Source: a virus
Virus genome (UHGV): UHGV-0828925
DNA: 34,506 nucleotides
Reading direction: 5' to 3' (one strand)
Positions 3,299 to 34,506 of this stretch are shown here, piece by piece. Within the stretch, counting starts at the first letter, position 1. Every line of letters begins with the position of its first letter. The notes under the pieces were generated by a model that was not told where the DNA came from, made no database searches, and was given only the letters and a program-made list of their open reading frames with translations. The position numbers and the translations under genes were made by a program.

Positions 3299-5464
3299 AT
3301 GGCCGACGAAAACAGACTCAATTCCATTCTGTGTAAGTTTGACGCGGACTGGATGGCGAGCGATGAAGCCAGAACCGAGGCGACAAATGACCTGTATTTT
3401 AGCCGAGTGTCGCAATGGGATGACTGGCTATCAAACTACACGACCCTGCAATATCGCGGACAATTCGATGTTGTTCGCCCGGTGGTCAGGAAGCTGGTCG
3501 CAGAGATGCGCCGGAATCCTATCGACGTTCTCTTCCGACCAAAAGACGGAGCTAATCCTGATGCTGCCGATGTGCTGATGGGGATGTATCGTACTGATAT
3601 GCGCCATAACACGGCAAAAATTGCCGTTAACGTTGGCGTTCGTGAGCAGATAGAGTCCGGCGTTGGTGCATGGCGTCTGGTCACGCAGTACGAAGACAAC
3701 GATCCAACAAGCAACAATCAGGTAATTCGACGCCTGCCAATTCATGAAGCCTGCTCACACGTCATATGGGACGCCAACAGCAAGCAGATGGATAAGAGCG
3801 ATGCTAAGCACTGCACGGTGATTAACGCCTTGTCACGCAATGGCTGGAAAGAGTTCGCAGAGGATTACGGTATTGATCCGGACACCTTACCATCTTTCCA
3901 GAATCCGAACGATACATGGCTGTTTCCGTGGGTATCGAATGATGTCGTCTACGTCGCTGAGTATTACGAGGTCGAAGAGAAGAAAGAGAAAGTCTTCATC
4001 TACCGCGATCCGCTGACAGGTGAGCCGGTCAGCTATTACCAGCAGGATATTAAAGACGTTATCGACGACCTGGCTAATCGTGGATTCATTAAGGTAGCAG
4101 AGCGCAAGGTGAAGCGTCGGCGTGTGTATAAGTCGATCATCACCTGCACGCAGATACTGAAAGACCGCGAGAAGATAGCCGGAGAGCATATTCCAATCGT
4201 TCCAGTGTATGGAGAATGGTCATTCGCTGGTGACAAGGAGTGCTACGAAGGAGTGGTAAGGCTGACGAAAGACGGTCAACGCCTTCGTAACATGATCATG
4301 TCGTTCAACGCCGATATCGTTGCTCGTTCACCGAAGAAGAAACCTACCTTCTTCCCTGAGCAAATCGAAGGCTACGAATACATGTACGGTGGAAATGATG
4401 ACTATCCGTACTATCTGCAGAACAGGACCGATGAAAACGGTAACGACCTGCCGATTGGTCCAATCTCCTACATGGAAAACCCTGAAGTGCCGCAAGCCAA
4501 CGCTTACATGCTTGAGGCTGCCACCAACGCAGTGAAAGAGGTGGCTAGTCTTGGCGTGGATGCGCAGGCGGCAAACTCTCAGGTCGCTTTCGATACCGTC
4601 AATCAACTGAACATGCGGGCAGACCTTGAGACATACGTGTTTCAGGATAACCTGGCTACCGCAATGCGACGCGATGGCGAGATTTATGCCTCAATGGTCA
4701 ATGATATTTATGACGTTCCTCGTCATGTAACGCTGACACTTGAAGATGGAAGCGAGAAAGACGTTCAACTCTATGCGCAAGTTGTCGATTACCAGTCCGG
4801 CAATGTGGTCACACTCAACGACATTCGCGGTCGCTATGAGTGCTATACAGACGTCGGACCATCCTTCCAGAGTATGAAGGAACAGAACCGCGCAGAGATT
4901 CAGGAGTTGCTCACCAAGGTTCCGCAAGGTACTCCAGAGTTCCAGATGCTGATGCTGCAATACTTCACGCTGCTTGACGGTAAAGGCGTCGAGATGATGC
5001 GAGAGTACGCGAACAAGCAACTGGCGATGATGGGGCTGAAGAAACCAGAAACACCTGAAGAGATGGAGATGGTGCAACAGGCACAACAACAGCCGCAGCA
5101 GCCATCAGCAGAGCAAATTCAGGCGCAGGGCATCCTTCTGCAAGGTCAGGCTGAATTGCTCAAGGCAGAGAACCAACAGGCGCAGATTCAGGTTGAAGCT
5201 GCCAAGGTTGAAGCTCAAAACCAACTTAACGCCGCGAAGATTGCAGAAATCTTCAACAATATGGACCTCGACAAGCAGGCAGAACTGCGTGAGTACCTCA
5301 AGCTAGTAGGTCAATTCCAGCAACAGCGCAGCAAAGATGCTCGTGCTAACGCTGAGCTGCTTCTTAAAGATGCAGACCAGACTCATTCACAACGCATGGA
5401 TTTCGCGAATCTTATGCGTCAAGTTCAAATCCCCTCCGGCGGAGTAGCCGAGACACCTCAATAA
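3299..5464 (+). CDS. gp1: Portal protein (P22 gp1-like)
   Basis: 721 aa, directly after large terminase; Q/A-rich coiled-coil C-terminal barrel region ([10 protein letters not shown]...[20 protein letters not shown]) typical of the P22 portal. Confidence 0.92.
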
Positions 5465-28939: not shown

Positions 28940-29038
28940 AATTCACCTCAGAATGGACATGGCCCAAGGAAATAACGCTGATTTAATACTTCGACTCGGG
29001 ACAAATTAAGGCATACCCGCATTCCTTCGCGGTCACCA

Positions 29039-29197
29039 TTATGGCGATACCAGAGAGCTTTCTGCGTGTACATGCGTCTCTGTAACTTGCTCTCCTTCAC
29101 TGTGGTTGCAAGTGACATGAATATCTCCTTCGTTACCGATTAATTCTTTCATCTGACGAATGAATTCTTCGTCTGACCAGTTATCTGTAAAATTCAT
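29039..29197 (-). CDS. Small hypothetical protein (kil position)
   Basis: 52 aa from internal ATG of track ORF 29039..29227 (first codon TTG); ATG overlaps the cIII-like stop. Confidence 0.35.
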   Translation of the reverse strand: MNFTDNWSDEEFIRQMKELIGNEGDIHVTCNHSEGEQVTETHVHAESSLVSP

Positions 29198-29364
29198 GGA
29201 CGGCCTTGTTGTTTCAAAATATCCCAAAGCTTTTCGAGCAAACTTTTCATTCTTGGTTGTTTAAAGTCTGCTCCGGTTAAAATATTTTTTCGTGAATGCT
29301 GTACCGATAAAATCGGGTTGAAAGGGCGAACCGATGCCGCCCCTGCAATAGCGAACTGTTGCAT
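29194..29364 (-). CDS. cIII: CIII-like protein (protease inhibitor protecting CII)
   Basis: 56 aa hand-translated MQQFAIAGAASVRPFNPILSVQHSRKNILTGADFKQPRMKSLLEKLWDILKQQGRP; AAGGAG SD; central amphipathic region resembles lambda CIII. Below track threshold. Confidence 0.55.
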   Translation of the reverse strand: MQQFAIAGAASVRPFNPILSVQHSRKNILTGADFKQPRMKSLLEKLWDILKQQGRP

Positions 29365-29439
29365 AGGATGCTCCTTCTGTTTGATTGCATAACGAAAACG
29401 CCTCTCGTGAAGCGTTATTGGTATGCGGTAAAGCCGCGC

Positions 29440-29751
29440 TTAGGCGGCTGATGTTTCTTCTTTCAGGCTTTCGAGATATTTACGTGGGTCGTCGTAACAT
29501 TGGCATTCGCTGTACCAATCCACCCAGCGATCAGTAAGCCCCATCTCTGATAAATCTTCATCGGTAAGGCTCTCATCCCACATCTCAAGGCCGTTAGCAT
29601 TGCAGTAATCAGGCTTGATGTTGTTGTCATACTGAAAGGCGTCATAATCAGCCAGTGCGTCCATCAGGCGAACACCCTCTTCAACACTTGCCACTTCTAC
29701 AATGAACGGCTTCATAGGTACTTGCGGGATATGCCAGACACGTAATTTCAT
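29440..29751 (-). CDS. Hypothetical acidic protein
   Basis: About 103 aa from ATG with GGAGAA SD (track ORF 29440..29805 starts with TTG). Confidence 0.5.
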   Translation of the reverse strand: MKLRVWHIPQVPMKPFIVEVASVEEGVRLMDALADYDAFQYDNNIKPDYCNANGLEMWDESLTDEDLSEMGLTDRWVDWYSECQCYDDPRKYLESLKEETSAA

Positions 29752-29939
29752 ATTTTCTCCGTTAAAAAAATCGCCCTCACACTGGAGGGCAAAGAAGATT
29801 TCCAATAATCAGAACAAGTCGGCTCCTGTTTAGTTACGAGCGACATTGCTCCGTGTATTCACTCGTTGGAATGAATACACAGTGCTGTGTTTATTCTGTT
29901 GTTTATGCCAAAAATAAAGGCCGACTATGCGGCCATCAC

Positions 29940-30128
29940 TTAAATTTCCTTCCATCCCCAATCAAGCGTTTCAAATGCTACATCACGCATGTTTTCGTCT
30001 TTTTCGTCCTGATCCATTTCATTCCACTCATTCTCGGATAAGCCAAGATCATCGAGTGTTACAACTGTCTTTTTGCAAGAATGAATGTTTGCGCCGGAAT
30101 CCAACCAAATTTCAAATTTACGTTCCAT
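29940..30128 (-). CDS. Small hypothetical acidic protein downstream of N
   Basis: 62 aa; GAGGTGA SD; ATG 8 nt after the N stop. Confidence 0.5.
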   Translation of the reverse strand: MERKFEIWLDSGANIHSCKKTVVTLDDLGLSENEWNEMDQDEKDENMRDVAFETLDWGWKEI

Positions 30129-30136
30129 ATATCACC

Positions 30137-30436
30137 TCAAATAAGTGGTTTGCTGCCTAATTTCATTTTCTGGCGACCAACACAAGTCACACCCATTTCA
30201 CTGCGTGGCTTGCTGTAGTAAATACGGTTCTGTTTACGCTCGACTTCTTCTGCCTTCTTGCAGCGAAGGCTTCCGAGTGATGCTGCTTTATCTGCTCTGA
30301 CGCAACCAGAGAGCTTTAGCGCAATTTTTCGCGCCAGTCGCTGCTCTTGCATTGCCTGTTCACGTTGAGTCTGTCTGCGTGCTCTGCGGCGATTTCTGGC
30401 GTTATCGTCAGCCAGATATGTAATGACTACTGTCAT
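30137..30436 (-). CDS. N: N-like transcription antiterminator
   Basis: 99 aa; arginine-rich motif NARNRRRARRQTQREQ near the N-terminus; C-terminus ...ERKQNRIYYSKPRSEMGVTCVGRQKMKLGSKPLI resembles lambda N (...RTWYSKPGERGITCSGRQKIKGKSIPLI); GGAGG SD. Confidence 0.8.
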   Translation of the reverse strand: MTVVITYLADDNARNRRRARRQTQREQAMQEQRLARKIALKLSGCVRADKAASLGSLRCKKAEEVERKQNRIYYSKPRSEMGVTCVGRQKMKLGSKPLI

Positions 30437-31085
30437 GTTGACCTCCGATGAAACAACTTTGGAATTTTTTTATTACAAAGTGGTTTCCTTCCCCGCCAAT
30501 TAGACGGGGATGGAAGAGCATTTATGAGCCTTCATGGACTCTGCTCGATCAGTTCTATTTAATTAATCTCTCAACTGAATGTAAGTATTCACATAAATCC
30601 TCCTACCTCTTGTGCAGCTTTCTTGAATATGGTGGCGGCTGCATAACGCCTATGGAATTGACTTTGGCGATTGGATGGCCGGTGCTGAACTCCGGCTTAC
30701 TGGTTAGAGCGCCCGCACTACCAGTGACGCTGTCTTGAGGCGCAGATTGGTTACTGCTTGCCATGAGCGCTGTTTATACATTGGTCGAGCATCAGCCTGC
30801 TCATTCATCCAATCACAAAGCCAACTACTCTTTGACTCACACTCTCGCAGTGAGCGCGCTCATGCCATTGAGTCTCTGCCGCTTCATCGCCGCTGATAAC
30901 CGGTGCGCGTCTGGCATTCGCGCTGCTTTACCGGAGCTACTTTTAATATATTGACCCTAACCCGATGCTAAGCAGGCTCGCTCAATGGCGACTCAGGGCA
31001 GTATCATTACTGCTGCATTGCCTTTCGGCTGCGGTCTAACCGCGTTAGTGCACCATTACGGCACCTCCTGTTTGGTTAAACTCAG

Positions 31086-31127
31086 TTCCCGCATTTCGGC
31101 GGGACAATCCCATCAATGTTAAAGAGC
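31086..31127 (-). promoter_or_regulatory. nutL: nutL (boxA + boxB)
   Basis: On the minus strand: boxA GCTCTTTAACA, then boxB hairpin TCCCGC-CGAAAT-GCGGGA; same boxA/boxB as nutR. Confidence 0.7.
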
Positions 31128-31173
31128 CTGCCAAGCTGTTCCGTTTGGCTACCAGCGTCCTGCTGATGGCTAA

Positions 31174-31260
31174 AGAATACTGTAGGTATTTTATTGTGTA
31201 AATACCCAAGGTATTTATTTTTGGTGAAATAATGATAAGCAAATGAATACAAAGGATATT
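31174..31260 (-). promoter_or_regulatory. OL operators and pL promoter
   Basis: Three AATAC-N5-(G/A)TATT sites at 31176..31190, 31201..31215, 31246..31260; minus-strand -35 TTTACA / 17 bp / -10 TATTCT overlapping the first site. Confidence 0.6.
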
Positions 31261-31347
31261 TATTTTTTTCGGTGTCTGCTTGTTCAGTGCTTTTTATGCG
31301 GGATATGTGAAGTGGATCCCGATAGCTATTGCTGCCGGGATTATGGG

Positions 31348-31716
31348 TTAGTCAGCGAAGGTTAAGACGAGAATTACCTTAATGATGTCTGCTACAACAG
31401 ACACGGCCATAGATAAACCAAAGACAATCCAAGCCATAGAGATGTCTTCACTACCATCGTATAGAGTTCCGTAATCACTGGTGTAAGGCGTAAATGTCGC
31501 GCCTTGATACAATAGGTATAAGCTTGATCCATAGAGGAAAAATGCAGATATCCCTTGTATTGCCATGATCACCAGAATCATGAAACGAGCTGATCTATGC
31601 GCCCAAGCCTGGCTTATTTTTTCTGATAGAGATTTCGCAATAAAAGCATGCGCTAAGCCGTAAATTGTCGAGATTGCCAACATCCCAAAAAAGCTTGCTA
31701 TAGCGGTTCCAACCAT
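31348..31716 (-). CDS. Four-helix membrane protein co-transcribed with cI (rex-position accessory gene)
   Basis: About 122 aa from ATG with AAGGGG SD 18 nt after the cI stop (track ORF 31348..31737 starts with TTG); four hydrophobic segments. Confidence 0.7.
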   Translation of the reverse strand: MVGTAIASFFGMLAISTIYGLAHAFIAKSLSEKISQAWAHRSARFMILVIMAIQGISAFFLYGSSLYLLYQGATFTPYTSDYGTLYDGSEDISMAWIVFGLSMAVSVVADIIKVILVLTFAD

Positions 31717-31733
31717 AAGCGCCCCTTGCGTGA

Positions 31734-32450
31734 TCAAACCAGCCTTAGTTTTGTCTCAATTGCAACGCCTATAATCTTGCAGTTTCCATTGATTGGCACG
31801 AGAGGCCATGCAGGATTAAGCCCCTTGAGGTATTTATTTCCGCCGTCGATTATCAGCTTCTTGAATGTTGCTTCGTTAGAGTCAGAAAGTTTTGCTATGA
31901 CCAAGCTGCCGTTGATCGCCTCCCTTCCGGTATCGAAAAGAACGAATGTTCCCTCTGGAATGCTTAACCCAACCGGTGCCGTCATTGAATCACCTTCCAC
32001 TTTAAGCCAGAACGCATTACCTTGAATATGCGCGTCAGACTCAAGCCAAACATCTATGTCTTTAATGGTGTATGGTTCGCATGCTTCACACCACGAGCCA
32101 GCCTGGATACTGCTTAACACCGGATACCTCTTTCCTGCTCTGTATTCCCCTGCATACCTTACGTTGGCATCGCTCTTAAGGCTTTCTGCCTGTTCTGCAA
32201 CCTTGGCAGCAATTGACTGGCTAAAATCAGCAATTGAGACTTGCAACAATCGTGCAAAACCAGATGCAACCTCAACGTTTAGCGCATTTCTGCCATTAAG
32301 ATAATGCCCTACCGCTCCTTGGGTGATACCCAGTTCATCAGCGATTGAGTATTGGGTTATTCCCAATTCTTTCTTTTTTGACTCATACAAAGCCTTAAGC
32401 CGCTTAGCGTCTTCCAGCTGTTCTGTCGTCAGTGATTTTTTATTTTCCAT
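31734..32450 (-). CDS. cI: CI-type prophage repressor (HTH + S24 LexA-like autocleavage domain)
   Basis: 238 aa; N-terminal LTTEQLEDAKRLKALYESKKKELGITQYSIADELGITQGAVGHYLNG (lambda-cI-like HTH); C-terminal FWLKVEGDSMTAPVGLSIPEGTFVLFD...ATFKKLIIDGGNKYLKGLNP (S24 Ser/Lys dyad region). Confidence 0.92.
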   Translation of the reverse strand: MENKKSLTTEQLEDAKRLKALYESKKKELGITQYSIADELGITQGAVGHYLNGRNALNVEVASGFARLLQVSIADFSQSIAAKVAEQAESLKSDANVRYAGEYRAGKRYPVLSSIQAGSWCEACEPYTIKDIDVWLESDAHIQGNAFWLKVEGDSMTAPVGLSIPEGTFVLFDTGREAINGSLVIAKLSDSNEATFKKLIIDGGNKYLKGLNPAWPLVPINGNCKIIGVAIETKLRLV

Positions 32451-32461
32451 AGCTTAATTCT

Positions 32462-32527
32462 AATAGCTAAGGTACTTAAACTAAAAATACCCTGAGTATT
32501 GATTGCTTTGAATACCTGTAGTATTCT
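32462..32527. promoter_or_regulatory. OR operators with pR and pRM
   Basis: Sites AATAGCTAAGGTACT (32462..32476), AATACCCTGAGTATT (32486..32500), AATACCTGTAGTATT (32511..32525); pR -35 TTGATT (32499..32504), 17-bp spacer, -10 TATTCT (32522..32527). Confidence 0.65.
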
Positions 32528-32556
32528 TTGTTCATGGTTAATAACGGAGAGTGCAT

Positions 32557-32751
32557 ATGATTCGAATGACACTTGCCGATTACGCCAAAATCCATGGACA
32601 GGCTAAAGCAGCCAGTGACTTTGGTGTAATCCAGTGCGCTATCAGCAAGGCCATTCTGGCAGGCCGTAACATTATGGTTACGGTAAAGCCTGATGGCAGT
32701 GTGATTGGAGAGGAAGTTCGTCCTTTCCCAAGCAACAAGAAAAACAAATAG
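32557..32751 (+). CDS. cro: Cro-like repressor
   Basis: 64 aa from ATG with GGAGA SD (track ORF starts 6 nt earlier at GTG); ...KDYA.. / [28 protein letters not shown]...[13 protein letters not shown] parallels lambda Cro. Confidence 0.85.
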
Positions 32752-32757
32752 TAACAA

Positions 32758-32802
32758 CGCTCTTTAACAGTCATGGTCCTCATTCCCGCCGAAATGCGGG
32801 AA
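32758..32802 (+). promoter_or_regulatory. nutR: nutR (boxA + boxB)
   Basis: boxA CGCTCTTTAACA at 32758..32769; boxB hairpin TTCCCGC-CGAAAT-GCGGGAA at 32783..32802; followed by hairpin GCGCAT-AAGTTG-ATGCGC (tR1 region). Confidence 0.7.
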
Positions 32803-32859
32803 TACAACGCGCATAAGTTGATGCGCATAACTTCTTATTTGTTAAGGAAATACTTACAT

Positions 32860-33153
32860 ATGGTTCGTGCAAACAAACGCAACGAGGCTCTAAGAATCGA
32901 GAGTGCGTTGCTTAACAAAATCGCAATGCTTGGAACTGAGAAGACAGCGGAAGCTGTGGGAGTTGATAAGTCGCAGATCAGCAGGTGGAAGAGGGACTGG
33001 ATTCCAAAGTTCTCAATGCTGCTTGCTGTTCTTGAATGGGGTGTCGTCGAAGACGACATGGCTCGATTGGCACGACAAGTTGCTTCGATTCTCACCAATA
33101 AAAAACGCCCGGCGGCAACCGAGCGTTCTGAACAAATCCAGATGGAATTTTAA
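32860..33153 (+). CDS. cII: CII transcriptional activator (lambda-like)
   Basis: 97 aa MVRANKRNEALRIESALLNKIAMLGTEKTAEAVGVDKSQISRWKRDWIPKFSMLLAVLEWGVV...; TAAGGAAATACTTACAT-ATG upstream as in lambda; internal start of track ORF 32773..33153. Confidence 0.92.
   Translation: MVRANKRNEALRIESALLNKIAMLGTEKTAEAVGVDKSQISRWKRDWIPKFSMLLAVLEWGVVEDDMARLARQVASILTNKKRPAATERSEQIQMEF
32870..32883 (-). promoter_or_regulatory. CII-binding repeat of pRE (TTGC-N6-TTGC) antisense within the cII 5' end
   Basis: Minus-strand TTGCGTTTGTTTGC directly read at the start of cII, as in lambda pRE. Confidence 0.65.
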
Positions 33154-33175
33154 TAACATCCAACGAGGTAATTAT

Positions 33176-33448
33176 ATGCGAAACAAAGGCTTTAATCCAC
33201 CTGATACACACAAAGAAGCCAAGCGTTTGCGCTTCCTTCGTTCCATTGATGAAAGAACTCAAATCTCTTTTGTGAAAGTTGCCAGAACTGAGCTTCTGAA
33301 GGCTGAGGCGAGGGCGTTGCTCCCGTCTCTACCAAAAGAGGAGGGATATACGTTCATTCCAAACGCATTTCTGGAAAAGCTGCTCAAAGAAGACATATCC
33401 GTAAGTCAGTTTAACGATGTTCTTAAGGTCTTTCGTCAAGGCAGGTAG
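33176..33448 (+). CDS. Hypothetical basic protein between cII and O
   Basis: 90 aa (MRNKGFNPPDTHKEAKRLRFLRSIDERTQISF...); GAGG SD; stop 2 nt before the O start; 3' part of track ORF 32903..33448. Confidence 0.5.
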   Translation: MRNKGFNPPDTHKEAKRLRFLRSIDERTQISFVKVARTELLKAEARALLPSLPKEEGYTFIPNAFLEKLLKEDISVSQFNDVLKVFRQGR

Positions 33449-33450
33449 TT

Positions 33451-34398
33451 ATGAGCAATACAGCAAAAATCTACGATTTCAGCGCCGCACACGAGCGCAG
33501 GAGCAACAGGATGGAGAACCAGAAAACTGGTTACATTCCGTTGTACCGGAGCATTCTGAAACAGTCATGGGCGAAAGATGTTTATCTTCGCACCCTGTGG
33601 GAAAACCTTCTCCTGAATGCCGCCAGAAAGCCATACAAAGCGAATTTCAAAGGTCATGAATGGCATCTGCAACCCGGTCAACTGGTTGTGACAGCAGCTG
33701 ATTTAGGTCTTCAGTTATGCGACAGACATGGCAAGCCAGCAAGCCGTGATCAGGTTGAGCGGATGCTTCAGGTTTTTGTGAAAGAGGGGATGATCTCCAT
33801 TGATGGAGAGAAGCAAAAAGGTCGTGTGATAACCATCACAAATTACCATGAATATGCTCAAAAAATGGACAATTTACCCGCACATGAAGCCGCACAAACA
33901 ACCGCACATGATGCCGCACATGGCGAAGCCAGTAATGGCGCGGCTTTCAGCGCACATGCCGCACATGAAAGCGCACATGAAGCCGCACAAACAACCGCAC
34001 ATCATGAACAAGAAGGTATTAACAAGAATATAAATAATACCCCCCTACCCCCCAATGGGGGCGGCGATGGGCAGGTTAAACCTGAACGTCGCAAGGCAGA
34101 ACGAATCGACTACGAATCCTTCCTGAACGCCTACAACACCGAAGTCGGTGACAGACTGCCACACGCTGTTGCGGTCAACGAGAAACGCAAACGCCGCCTG
34201 AAGAAAATCATCCCGCAACTGAAAACGCCAAACGTGGACGGTTTCAGAGCGTATGTCAGGGCGTTTGTGCATCAGGCCAAGCCGTTTTACTTCGGAGACA
34301 ACGACACGGGCTGGACGGCAGATTTTGATTACCTGCTGAGGGAAGATTCGTTAACGGGAGTTCGGGAAGGGAAGTTTGCAGACAGGGGGATTGCATGA
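33451..34398 (+). CDS. O: Replication initiator (O-like) containing the origin iterons
   Basis: 315 aa; N-terminus [10 protein letters not shown] parallels lambda O (MTNTAKILNF); internal low-complexity [10 protein letters not shown] repeats encoded by DNA iterons; stop overlaps the next gene's ATG. Confidence 0.85.
33878..34055 (+). repeat. ori: Replication origin: iterons (C/G)CGCACATG repeated at least 7 times, followed by an AT-rich tract
   Basis: CCGCACATG / GCGCACATG units between 33878 and 34010, then AACAAGAATATAAATAATA and a C-run; same organisation as lambda ori inside O. Confidence 0.7.
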
Positions 34399-34506
34399 GA
34401 CAGGATATCGAAGCGAGCGTTATCGGTGGCCTGCTGATTGGTGGATTAACACCGACTGCCAGTGACGTTCTGGCAACGCTTGAGCCGGAAGCGTTTTCAA
34501 TTCCGC
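34395..34506 (+). CDS. Replicative helicase, DnaB-like (5' partial; continues beyond window)
   Basis: [34 protein letters not shown] resembles the DnaB N-terminal region (...EAEQSVLGGLML...); P22 gene 12 position. Confidence 0.6.

What the first reader, a model, noticed from the sequence alone, without database searches (positions are those of the whole stretch)
31086..32802. nutL and nutR share a boxB with a 6-nt loop, paired with an N protein carrying a distinct arginine-rich motif
Both nut sites contain boxA GCTCTTTAACA followed by the hairpin (T)TCCCGC-CGAAAT-GCGGGA(A), which differs from lambda boxB (GCCCT-GAAGA-AGGGC). The N protein has a lambda-like C-terminus but a different N-terminal arginine-rich motif, consistent with co-evolved RNA-peptide specificity.
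Basis: partly seen in the sequence, partly recalled or inferred. Interest (0 to 1): 0.45.

Follow-up and report, generated by a model that had tools for sequence, protein, structure and literature searches.

The report
HK620-type N antiterminator and nut sites
The two hairpins are the left and right N-utilisation (nut) sites of a lambda-like phage, already annotated in coliphage HK620, and they always travel with an N protein whose RNA-binding peptide is of its own type; this is an ordinary, untested extra specificity class of a textbook system.

Summary
The 18-nt hairpin TCCCGC-CGAAAT-GCGGGA occurs exactly twice, each time 12-14 nt after boxA GCTCTTTAACA. One copy lies downstream of pL on the minus strand and one lies just after cro on the plus strand. 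Window 31085-32862 is 98.8% identical to coliphage HK620, whose 2001 GenBank record already annotates these stretches as putative nutL and nutR, so the element is known.

N (30137-30436, minus strand) is a mosaic. Residues 1-~63, with the arginine-rich motif (ARM) DNARNRRRARRQTQREQ, are HK620-type. The rest is 98.5% phage 21 N and ends in the lambda-N-like RNA-polymerase-binding tail.

Comparative data support matched peptide/RNA specificity. In 127 of 127 distinct contexts this ARM sits behind a CGAAAU boxB. The lambda, P22, phage 21 and Hafnia-phage ARMs each have their own loop. The same nutL/nutR/N module is joined to at least 7 repressor types.

The "6-nt loop" is probably a true GNRA tetraloop (GAAA) flanked by a C·U mismatch. 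That is inference, not shown.

Interest is low to moderate. No binding or antitermination test was found in the accessible literature.

Separately, the unusually long 650-nt N leader holds a conserved, strongly covarying ~230-nt structured RNA preceded by a mini-ORF. It has no Rfam match and deserves its own follow-up.

The parts
31117..31127 (-). nutL boxA (GCTCTTTAACA), about 40 nt downstream of the pL -10 hexamer
   Evidence: Exact match. It lies inside the stretch corresponding to HK620 'nutL; putative N-utilization leftward' (window 31087-31128).
31087..31104 (-). nutL boxB hairpin UCCCGC-CGAAAU-GCGGGA (loop 31093-31098)
   Evidence: The identical 18-mer lies upstream of N in 77 of 80 loci that carry the same N.
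32758..32769 (+). nutR boxA (CGCTCTTTAACA), starting 7 nt after the cro stop codon
   Evidence: Corresponds to the HK620 nutR annotation.
32782..32803 (+). nutR boxB hairpin AUUCCCGC-CGAAAU-GCGGGAAU (loop 32790-32795)
   Evidence: The core was invariant in 111 nutR copies while the 6-nt spacer in front of it varied at several positions.
30137..30436 (-). N antitermination protein, 99 aa. It is a mosaic: HK620-type residues 1-~63 plus a phage-21-type C-terminus
   Evidence: The Pfam N_peptide match is weak, 17.9 bits against a cut-off of 27.9.
30353..30403 (-). Arginine-rich motif of N, residues 12-28 (NARNRRRARRQTQREQA)
   Evidence: Aligns with the ARMs of lambda, P22-type, phage 21 and Hafnia-phage N proteins. 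Associated with the CGAAAU loop in 127 of 127 contexts.
31167..31238 (-). pL promoter and operators OL1-OL3, which drive the nutL-N transcript
   Evidence: Transferred from the HK620 annotation. A promoter-like site TTTACA-17-TATTCT lies at 31202-31174.
32460..32533 (+). OR1-OR3 operators and pR promoter, which drive the cro-nutR transcript
   Evidence: Transferred from the HK620 annotation. The simple promoter scan did not pick it up.
32557..32751 (+). cro
   Evidence: Pfam Cro, E = 3.6e-26.
31734..32450 (-). cI repressor (HTH plus S24 peptidase), HK620 immunity type
30437..31086 (-). 650-nt leader between nutL boxB and the N start codon. HK620 and HF4s have about 90 nt where the window has 633 (30452-31084). 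It is built of three cassettes that occur independently elsewhere: A about 31084-30817, B about 30836-30657, C about 30677-30437
29771..29934 (-). Two terminator-like hairpins with T tracts downstream of N in the pL operon. These are candidate targets of antitermination
   Evidence: HK620 annotates tL1 and tL2 terminators at the corresponding region.

Best explanation
These are the nutL and nutR sites of an HK620-type N antitermination module in a mosaic lambdoid (P22-like) phage or prophage of E. coli. Transcripts from pL and pR carry boxA and, 12-14 nt later, the boxB hairpin. BoxA is the NusB/NusE site by analogy with lambda. The N-terminal arginine-rich helix of N (about residues 12-28, NARNRRRARRQTQREQA) binds boxB. 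The phage-21/lambda-like C-terminal part of N then holds onto RNA polymerase with the Nus factors, so the polymerase reads through the terminators downstream of nutR and downstream of N. The ARM and boxB form a matched pair that is inherited as one module, independently of the repressor/operator module and of the C-terminal half of N. The nominal hexaloop CGAAAU most likely folds as a genuine GNRA tetraloop (GAAA) stacked on a non-canonical C·U pair. That is the same architecture as the phage 21 hexaloop (C·C pair plus a 4-nt GNRA-like fold), but with the loop chemistry of lambda. Shown here: sequence, position, conservation and association. Inferred: binding, the loop fold and antitermination activity.
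For: The hairpin occurs exactly twice against a chance expectation of 0.03, each time after boxA. It folds stably.

Window 31085-32862 is 98.8% identical to HK620, where pL, OL, nutL, cI, OR, pR, cro, nutR and tR1 are annotated in this order.

The N C-terminus is homologous to lambda N in the 6GOV antitermination complex and 98.5% identical to phage 21 N.

The ARM aligns column for column with the lambda, P22 and phage 21 ARMs. R16, R20 and R21 are invariant.

ARM class and nutL loop class match one to one: HK620-type 127/127 CGAAAU, phage 21 4/4 CUAACC, lambda 4/4 GAAGA, Hafnia type 6/6 GAGA, P22 type 2/2 GACAA.

179 loci carry both HK620-type nuts around 11 different inter-nut regions with at least 7 repressor types. 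At least 4 different cro 3' ends abut the same nutR.

The hairpin core is invariant while the adjacent spacer varies.

For the tetraloop reading: a diverged ARM (NARNRRRAKRATEREQ) keeps the loop CGAAAU on a different stem, UCUCCGC/GCGGGGA. The related Hafnia-phage N has nutR C-GCAA-U and nutL GAGA closed directly by C-G, so one protein pairs with both forms. In these relatives the inner four bases are always GNRA. P22-type phages likewise carry GACAA closed by U-A in nutL and flanked by C..C in nutR. The phage 21 CUAACC loop is reported to form a 4-nt GNRA-like fold flanked by a C-C pair (PMC12550061).
Against: No experiment on this N/boxB pair was found in the searchable literature.

The HK620-type boxB is almost invariant, so covariation support for its stem rests on a few variants.

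The association counts come from related phages and are not independent events.

Pfam's N_peptide model scores below its threshold.

The C·U-closed tetraloop is a sequence-pattern inference. Nearest-neighbour folding simply reports a 6-nt loop.

mEp213 carries an N with this ARM but only lambda-type nut sites and a broken boxB remnant. An ARM can therefore persist without its cognate sites.
Confidence: 0.88

Rival explanations
1. The sites are nut sites, but boxB is read as a true open hexaloop with a fold of its own (for example a U-turn as in phage 21), not as a GNRA tetraloop on a C·U pair.
For: Thermodynamic folding gives a 6-nt loop. The N body and the boxA-spacer segments are closest to phage 21, whose boxB is a hexaloop. 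C and U at loop positions 1 and 6 are conserved in all HK620-type and Hafnia nutR copies, as expected if they are contacted directly.
Against: The inner four bases are GAAA, GCAA or GAGA, always GNRA. The Hafnia nutL has GAGA closed by a Watson-Crick C-G with no flanking pyrimidines. Even the phage 21 hexaloop is described as a 4-nt GNRA-like fold plus a C-C pair. The ARM (NA+xRRRxRR) resembles lambda and P22 more than phage 21.
Confidence: 0.3
2. The ARM/boxB pairing reflects shared descent and linkage, not exclusive specificity. This N would also act on lambda or P22 boxB, so 'co-evolved specificity' overstates the case.
For: The ARM is close to the lambda and P22 ARMs. A cited paper title states that P22 boxB sequence requirements overlap with those of lambda (reference list seen). 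N and nutL are adjacent, so linkage alone would produce association. mEp213 keeps this N next to lambda nut sites.
Against: nutR lies 1.2-3.4 kb from N across an exchangeable immunity region, yet it always matches nutL in loop type in 179 loci with 11 inter-nut clusters. The mosaic junction falls at boxA on one side and 2 nt after boxB on the other. The position equivalent to lambda Trp18 is Ala28 here.
Confidence: 0.2
3. The repeated hairpin is not an N target. It would instead be a terminator, an RNase III site or a DNA-level protein-binding palindrome.
For: It is a G+C-rich inverted repeat. HK620 annotates tR1 immediately after nutR.
Against: No T tract follows either copy, and the terminator scan does not call them. 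Both copies follow boxA at nut-like spacing and sit at the canonical nut positions. The loop type tracks the N ARM across phages. The two copies are oriented with transcription on opposite strands, as expected for an RNA signal.
Confidence: 0.03

Closest known systems
Coliphage HK620 nutL/nutR and N (GenBank AF335538, 2001)
   Same: The nut sites and spacers are identical. The immunity region is 98.8% identical over window 31085-32862. The first ~63 residues of N, including the ARM, are the same apart from one residue (Q-T-Q versus Q-A-Q).
   Different: The C-terminal third of N is phage-21-type here and P22/933W-type in HK620. The window has 633 bp where HK620 has about 90 bp between nutL and N. 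In HK620 the sites are annotated only as 'putative'.
Phage 21 N / boxB (CUAACC hexaloop; PDB 1NYB)
   Same: Same boxA GCTCTTTAACA and homologous spacers. 6-nt loop on a 6-7-bp stem. N residues 34-99 are 98.5% identical. The phage 21 loop is a 4-nt GNRA-like fold flanked by a pyrimidine-pyrimidine pair.
   Different: The loop sequence is CGAAAU rather than CUAACC. The ARM is NARNRRRARRQTQREQ rather than TAKSRYKARRAELIAER.
Lambda N / boxB (GAAGA/GAAAA pentaloop, GNRA-like fold with one extruded base; 6GOV complex)
   Same: Overall organisation: pL-nutL-N and pR-cro-nutR. The ARM pattern is xAxxRRRxRR. The C-terminal RNA-polymerase-binding tail is homologous. The loop begins GAAA.
   Different: The loop has 4 inner bases plus C..U instead of 5 bases closed by U-A, so there is no obvious extruded base. 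Lambda Trp18 corresponds to Ala28. BoxA is GCTCTTTAA rather than GCTCTTAA/AC.
P22 gp24 / boxB (GACAA pentaloop; PDB 1A4T)
   Same: The N-terminus MTV(V)ITY... and the placement of the ARM about 12 residues in are the same. In P22-type phages nutR has the loop flanked by a C..C mismatch (ACCGC-CGACAAC-GCGGU) while nutL has U-A closure. This parallels the C..U flank here.
   Different: Pentaloop GACAA rather than tetraloop GAAA. The ARM has His and Lys-Leu-Ala-Ile where this one has Arg and Gln-Thr-Gln-Arg.
Hafnia phages yong1 / Meifeng N and nut sites (unannotated)
   Same: The nutR boxA and spacer are homologous. The loop C-GCAA-U has the same C-GNRA-U form. N has a related ARM and a lambda-like tail.
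   Different: The ARM is NAKQRCKLRRLERRSEE. nutL uses GAGA closed by C-G. The stems differ.

Membership tests
Lambda-type N/nut processive antitermination module | boxA consensus (CGCUCUU(U)A) in the transcript, 5' of boxB | tested here: met
   CGCTCTTTAACA / GCTCTTTAACA at both sites. Identical to the boxA of phage 21 and P22-type phages.
Lambda-type N/nut processive antitermination module | boxB: a short stable hairpin a few to about 15 nt 3' of boxA, the same in nutL and nutR | tested here: met
   The identical 18-nt hairpin lies 12 nt (nutL) and 14 nt (nutR) after boxA.
Lambda-type N/nut processive antitermination module | One site downstream of pL before N and one downstream of cro before cII, each oriented with transcription | tested here: met
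   The gene order kil-cIII...N-nutL-pL/OL-(hkaS)-cI-OR/pR-cro-nutR-cII is as in HK620.
Lambda-type N/nut processive antitermination module | Small basic N protein with an N-terminal arginine-rich motif | tested here: met
   99 aa. Residues 12-28 align with the lambda, P22 and phage 21 ARMs.
Lambda-type N/nut processive antitermination module | C-terminal RNA-polymerase-binding segment homologous to lambda N | tested here: met
   Residues 62-99 match 6GOV chain N residues 74-110, E = 2.6e-5.
Lambda-type N/nut processive antitermination module | Match to the curated Pfam family N_peptide (PF25694) | tested here: inconclusive
   17.9 bits against a gathering cut-off of 27.9, E = 0.0046.
Lambda-type N/nut processive antitermination module | Terminators downstream whose read-through depends on N and the Nus factors | not testable with these tools
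   Terminator-like hairpins exist downstream of N, and HK620 annotates tL1, tL2 and tR1. N dependence needs an experiment.
Distinct N-ARM/boxB specificity class | ARM type and boxB loop type co-occur exclusively across phages, independently of the flanking modules | tested here: met
   The association is one to one in 144 distinct contexts. It holds across 11 inter-nut region clusters and across different N C-termini.
Distinct N-ARM/boxB specificity class | Preferential binding and antitermination with the cognate boxB only | not testable with these tools
   No data found.
GNRA-tetraloop boxB (C-GNRA-U) | The inner four loop bases fit G-N-R-A in all members | tested here: met
   GAAA (HK620 type and L232), GCAA (Hafnia nutR), GAGA (Hafnia nutL).
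GNRA-tetraloop boxB (C-GNRA-U) | Sheared G·A pair and GNRA backbone fold, with C·U stacked as a closing pair | not testable with these tools
   Needs NMR, crystallography or chemical probing.

The most novel reading that the evidence does not exclude
The HK620-type boxB would be the first natural N target built on a genuine 4-nt GNRA tetraloop (closed by a C·U pair), with no extruded loop base. In lambda, on my recollection, the extruded fourth base is needed for the NusA-dependent step but not for N binding. This class, together with the Hafnia-phage class with GAGA/GCAA loops, would then assemble the antitermination complex with a different boxB-NusA contact, or with none. It would also give a natural series (tetraloop, pentaloop, hexaloop) for studying how ARM peptides retune RNA recognition.
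Probability: 0.4. Interest if true: 0.45.

Novelty: already known. Interest (0 to 1): 0.25.

Why it matters
N/boxB pairs are the classic model for recognition of RNA by arginine-rich peptides, and they are widely used as tethering tools. This class is common: the nutR 58-mer is present in at least 500 of 5,426 complete E. coli genomes. It also occurs in some Stx-converting phages. As far as I could find it has never been tested. A fourth orthogonal peptide/hairpin pair would be useful but not surprising. The practical result here is that the finding is correct and ordinary. The more unusual object is next door, in the N leader.

Tried and rejected
- tblastn with the N-terminal 40 residues against the phage collection found nothing, probably because of low-complexity masking. 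I replaced it with local regex and ORF scans.
- Rfam has no hit anywhere in 29000-34506, and no nut/boxB family matched.
- Literature searches for HK620 combined with boxB, nut or arginine-rich terms returned no study of this pair. The phage 21 NMR paper (PMC1370434) is not held, so I used a 2025 survey that describes that structure.
- I considered that the hairpins might be terminators. I rejected this because there is no T tract and the scan does not call them.
- For leader cassette A I tested three ideas and rejected them. It is not a tRNA or tmRNA. It is not an rRNA mimic, since blastn against an E. coli rrn operon found no similarity. It is not one of the prophage Pas sRNAs; the processed PasA-2 form is 84 nt and all Pas sRNAs end in an intrinsic terminator.
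- The genome-wide scan with an exact 18-mer looked as if the RNA occurred in many phyla. An nhmmer profile showed that only 13 of 120 hits are real, and the ones I identified by record title are Enterobacterales. The rest are chance matches.
- A full-text search for conserved sequence strings found no relevant paper.
Full report
**What is there.** The 18-nt inverted repeat TCCCGC-CGAAAT-GCGGGA occurs exactly twice in the 34.5-kb window, at 31087-31104 on the minus strand and at 32784-32801 on the plus strand. No further copy appears even with three mismatches. Chance expectation is 0.03 copies. Each copy follows GCTCTTTAACA, at 31117-31127 (-) and 32759-32769 (+), by 12 and 14 nt. As RNA, the nutR copy folds into an 8-bp stem with a 6-nt loop at -12.5 kcal/mol, z = -3.9. 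The nutL copy forms the same loop on a shorter stem.

**Context and identity.** The surrounding genes are:
- an S24/HTH cI repressor (31734-32450, -);
- a small membrane-protein ORF downstream of it;
- cro (32557-32751, +);
- cII (32860-33153, +).

Window 31085-32862 is 98.8% identical to coliphage HK620. The HK620 GenBank record AF335538 annotates pL, OL1-3, OR1-3, pR and tR1. It also annotates 'nutL; putative N-utilization leftward' and 'nutR; putative N-utilization rightward'. These two features map to window 31087-31128 and 32757-32802, so the element was already annotated in 2001. A promoter-like site at 31202-31174 (-) matches the annotated pL. nutL boxA therefore starts about 40 nt into the leftward transcript, and nutR boxA starts 7 nt after the cro stop codon. 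Terminator-like hairpins lie downstream of N.

**The N protein.** N lies at 30137-30436 (-), outside the coordinates given, and has 99 residues beginning MTVVITYLADDNARNRRRARRQTQREQ. It is a mosaic:
- The first ~63 residues equal HK620 N.
- Residues 34-99 are 98.5% identical to phage 21 N.
- The last 38 residues align with lambda N in the 6GOV antitermination complex at E = 2.6e-5.

HK620's own N has a different, P22/933W-like C-terminus. A Stx2a phage combines a P22-type ARM with the phage-21-type C-terminus. N is thus modular, and the ARM half can be exchanged independently of the polymerase-binding half.

**Does the ARM go with the boxB?** I compared N loci from phage records and IMG/VR contigs.
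- In 77 of 80 loci with this N, the identical boxB lies once upstream of N and once on the opposite strand.
- Across all loci held, counting distinct contexts only, ARM class and nutL loop class correspond one to one:

| ARM | nutL loop | Contexts |
|---|---|---|
| NARNRRRARR.. (HK620 type) | CGAAAU | 127/127 |
| TAKSRYKARR.. (phage 21) | CUAACC | 4/4 |
| DAQTRRRERR.. (lambda) | GAAGA | 4/4 |
| NAKQRCKLRR.. (Hafnia phages) | GAGA | 6/6 |
| NAKTRRHERR.. (P22 type) | GACAA | 2/2 |

- 179 loci carry both HK620-type nut sites. The DNA between the sites falls into 11 clusters with at least 7 repressor types, including a lambda-cI-like one.
- At least four different cro 3' ends abut the same nutR boxA.
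- In 111 nutR copies the hairpin core never varies, while the six bases just before it vary at several positions.

The nut sites travel with the ARM, not with the immunity genes and not with the C-terminal half of N. This is what a matched peptide/RNA pair predicts. It remains association among related phages and is not a binding measurement. I found no experimental work on this pair.

**What kind of loop.** A 6-nt boxB loop is not new, since phage 21 has CUAACC. A 2025 structural survey describes the phage 21 loop as a 4-nt GNRA-like fold (UAAC) flanked by a non-canonical C-C pair in PDB 1NYB. The same survey describes P22 GACAA and the lambda pentaloops as GNRA folds with one base looped out (PMC12550061).

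Four observations bear on the loop here:
- The loop reads C-GAAA-U.
- A diverged relative (L232, ARM NARNRRRAKRATEREQ) keeps CGAAAU on a different stem, UCUCCGC/GCGGGGA.
- The Hafnia phages yong1 and Meifeng and four IMG/VR relatives share a homologous nutR boxA and spacer. They have nutR C-GCAA-U and nutL GAGA closed directly by C-G, both paired with the same N.
- P22-type phages show the same duality: nutL U-GACAA-A and nutR C-GACAA-C.

The inner four bases are always GNRA, and the flanking pyrimidines can be replaced by a Watson-Crick pair. The most economical reading is a true GNRA tetraloop on a C·U closing pair. I rate this about 0.55-0.6 against a genuinely open hexaloop. It cannot be settled with sequence tools.

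**Mechanism (inferred).** The mechanism follows the lambda paradigm. BoxA recruits NusB/NusE. The ARM helix of N binds boxB. The central and C-terminal parts of N bind NusA and RNA polymerase, and the modified polymerase reads through terminators after nutR and after N. Position 28, which is equivalent to lambda Trp18, is Ala. The stacking contact used by lambda must therefore be made differently or be absent.

**Novelty and interest.** The element is already annotated, belongs to a textbook system and is very common. The nutR 58-mer is in at least 500 of 5,426 complete E. coli genomes and in some Stx-converting phages. What has not been done is any test of its specificity or structure. I score it as already known, with interest 0.25. 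The tetraloop reading is a modest open question.

**Seen in passing: an unusual N leader.** HK620 and HF4s have about 90 bp between nutL and the N upstream region. The window has 633 bp at 30452-31084, and the junction lies 2 nt after boxB. This leader consists of three cassettes that occur alone or in any combination in other N loci.

Cassette A (about 31084-30817, transcribed strand minus) has the following features:
- It starts with a strong Shine-Dalgarno sequence and a mini-ORF, AGGAGGtgccgtaATGGTGCACTAA. In relatives the mini-ORF has 1-6 codons, and some are simply ATG-TGA.
- A structured region of about 230 nt follows.
- An exact 18-mer from it hits at least 120 viral contigs, and 130 copies fall into 56 clusters at <85% identity.
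- On a 51-sequence alignment, RNAalifold predicts 41 pairs, 24 of them with compensatory double changes.
- 97.4% of cells are paired, against 28-40% when the 3' partners are slid by 1-3 columns. There are 253 double-change cells against 11-41 in the slid controls. None of 500 shuffles reaches the observed values.
- It has no Rfam 15 match, is not a tRNA or tmRNA, and does not resemble rRNA.
- Real genomic copies were found only in Enterobacterales, in 13 of 120 18-mer hits.
- In my ORF scan its orientation matches that of the same-strand flanking genes. It sits mainly in two places: between cI/nutL and N, or just downstream of a Q-like antiterminator gene. In Klebsiella phage RothC it lies next to tRNA genes.

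I could not assign a function. It is not one of the Pas prophage sRNAs. It looks like an undescribed phage RNA family and deserves a separate investigation.

Noticed in passing
window 30817-31084 (-); core about 30830-31066: Cassette A of the N leader is a conserved structured RNA of about 230 nt, preceded by a strong SD and a 1-6-codon mini-ORF (here ATG GTG CAC TAA at 31053-31042). At least 120 viral contigs carry it. 24 of 41 predicted pairs show compensatory changes. 97.4% of cells are paired against 28-40% in slid controls. It has no Rfam 15 hit. It was found only in Enterobacterales (pro)phages, mostly in the N leader or just downstream of a Q-like gene. Function unknown.
   Followed up: partly
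window 30437-31086 (-): The leader between nutL and N is 650 nt. The window has 633 bp where HK620 and HF4s have about 90 bp. It is made of three cassettes (A about 31084-30817, B about 30836-30657, C about 30677-30437). In other phages with the same N these occur singly or in any combination, so the nutL-N interval appears to be an insertion hotspot. The effect on N translation control is unknown.
   Followed up: partly
window 30657-30836 (-), cassette B: Cassette B is 90-98% identical to unannotated stretches in unrelated phages (Klebsiella KO-TP1, vB_EcoM-ep3, Enterobacter BUCT554). It contains a possible 34-aa ORF, MNEQADARPMYKQRSWQAVTNLRLKTASLVVRAL, which recurs with changes in other loci. 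Whether it is coding or RNA was not resolved.
   Followed up: no
L243, L257, L276, L277, L279, L281, L292, L295 (about 60-100 nt downstream of cassette A): In 8 viral contigs a further downstream cassette contains a 40-nt copy of 16S rRNA helix 11 (E. coli 16S 243-282; 87.5% identity, with paired changes that keep the helix). L268 has a variant closer to the E. coli sequence. The meaning is unknown.
   Followed up: no
L086 (phage mEp213) 2420-2752 and 3905-4177; remnant at about 3525-3548: mEp213 carries two N genes. One is a lambda-type N with lambda nutL and nutR. The second has the window's ARM and is preceded by cassette A, but only by a recombined half of the HK620-type boxB and no boxA. 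It may be an orphan N or a relic.
   Followed up: partly
L087, L088 (Hafnia phages yong1, Meifeng) and L119, L201, L205, L209: These carry an unannotated N/nut class: ARM MNAKQRCKLRRLERRSEER, with nutL GUAUGCC-GAGA-GGUGUAC and nutR UCCCUGC-CGCAAU-GUGGGGA. One variant changes a G·U pair to G-C. In the phage records N is listed as a hypothetical protein.
   Followed up: partly
window 32809-32843 (+): A second hairpin, GCGCAU-AAGUUG-AUGCGC, lies directly after nutR and is followed by AUAACUUCUUAUUUGUU. It may be part of tR1. The terminator scan did not call it.
   Followed up: no
L174 (IMG/VR contig), nutR: In one contig the nutR boxB is interrupted after TTCCCGCCG by unrelated sequence. This is an insertion or rearrangement inside boxB.
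   Followed up: no
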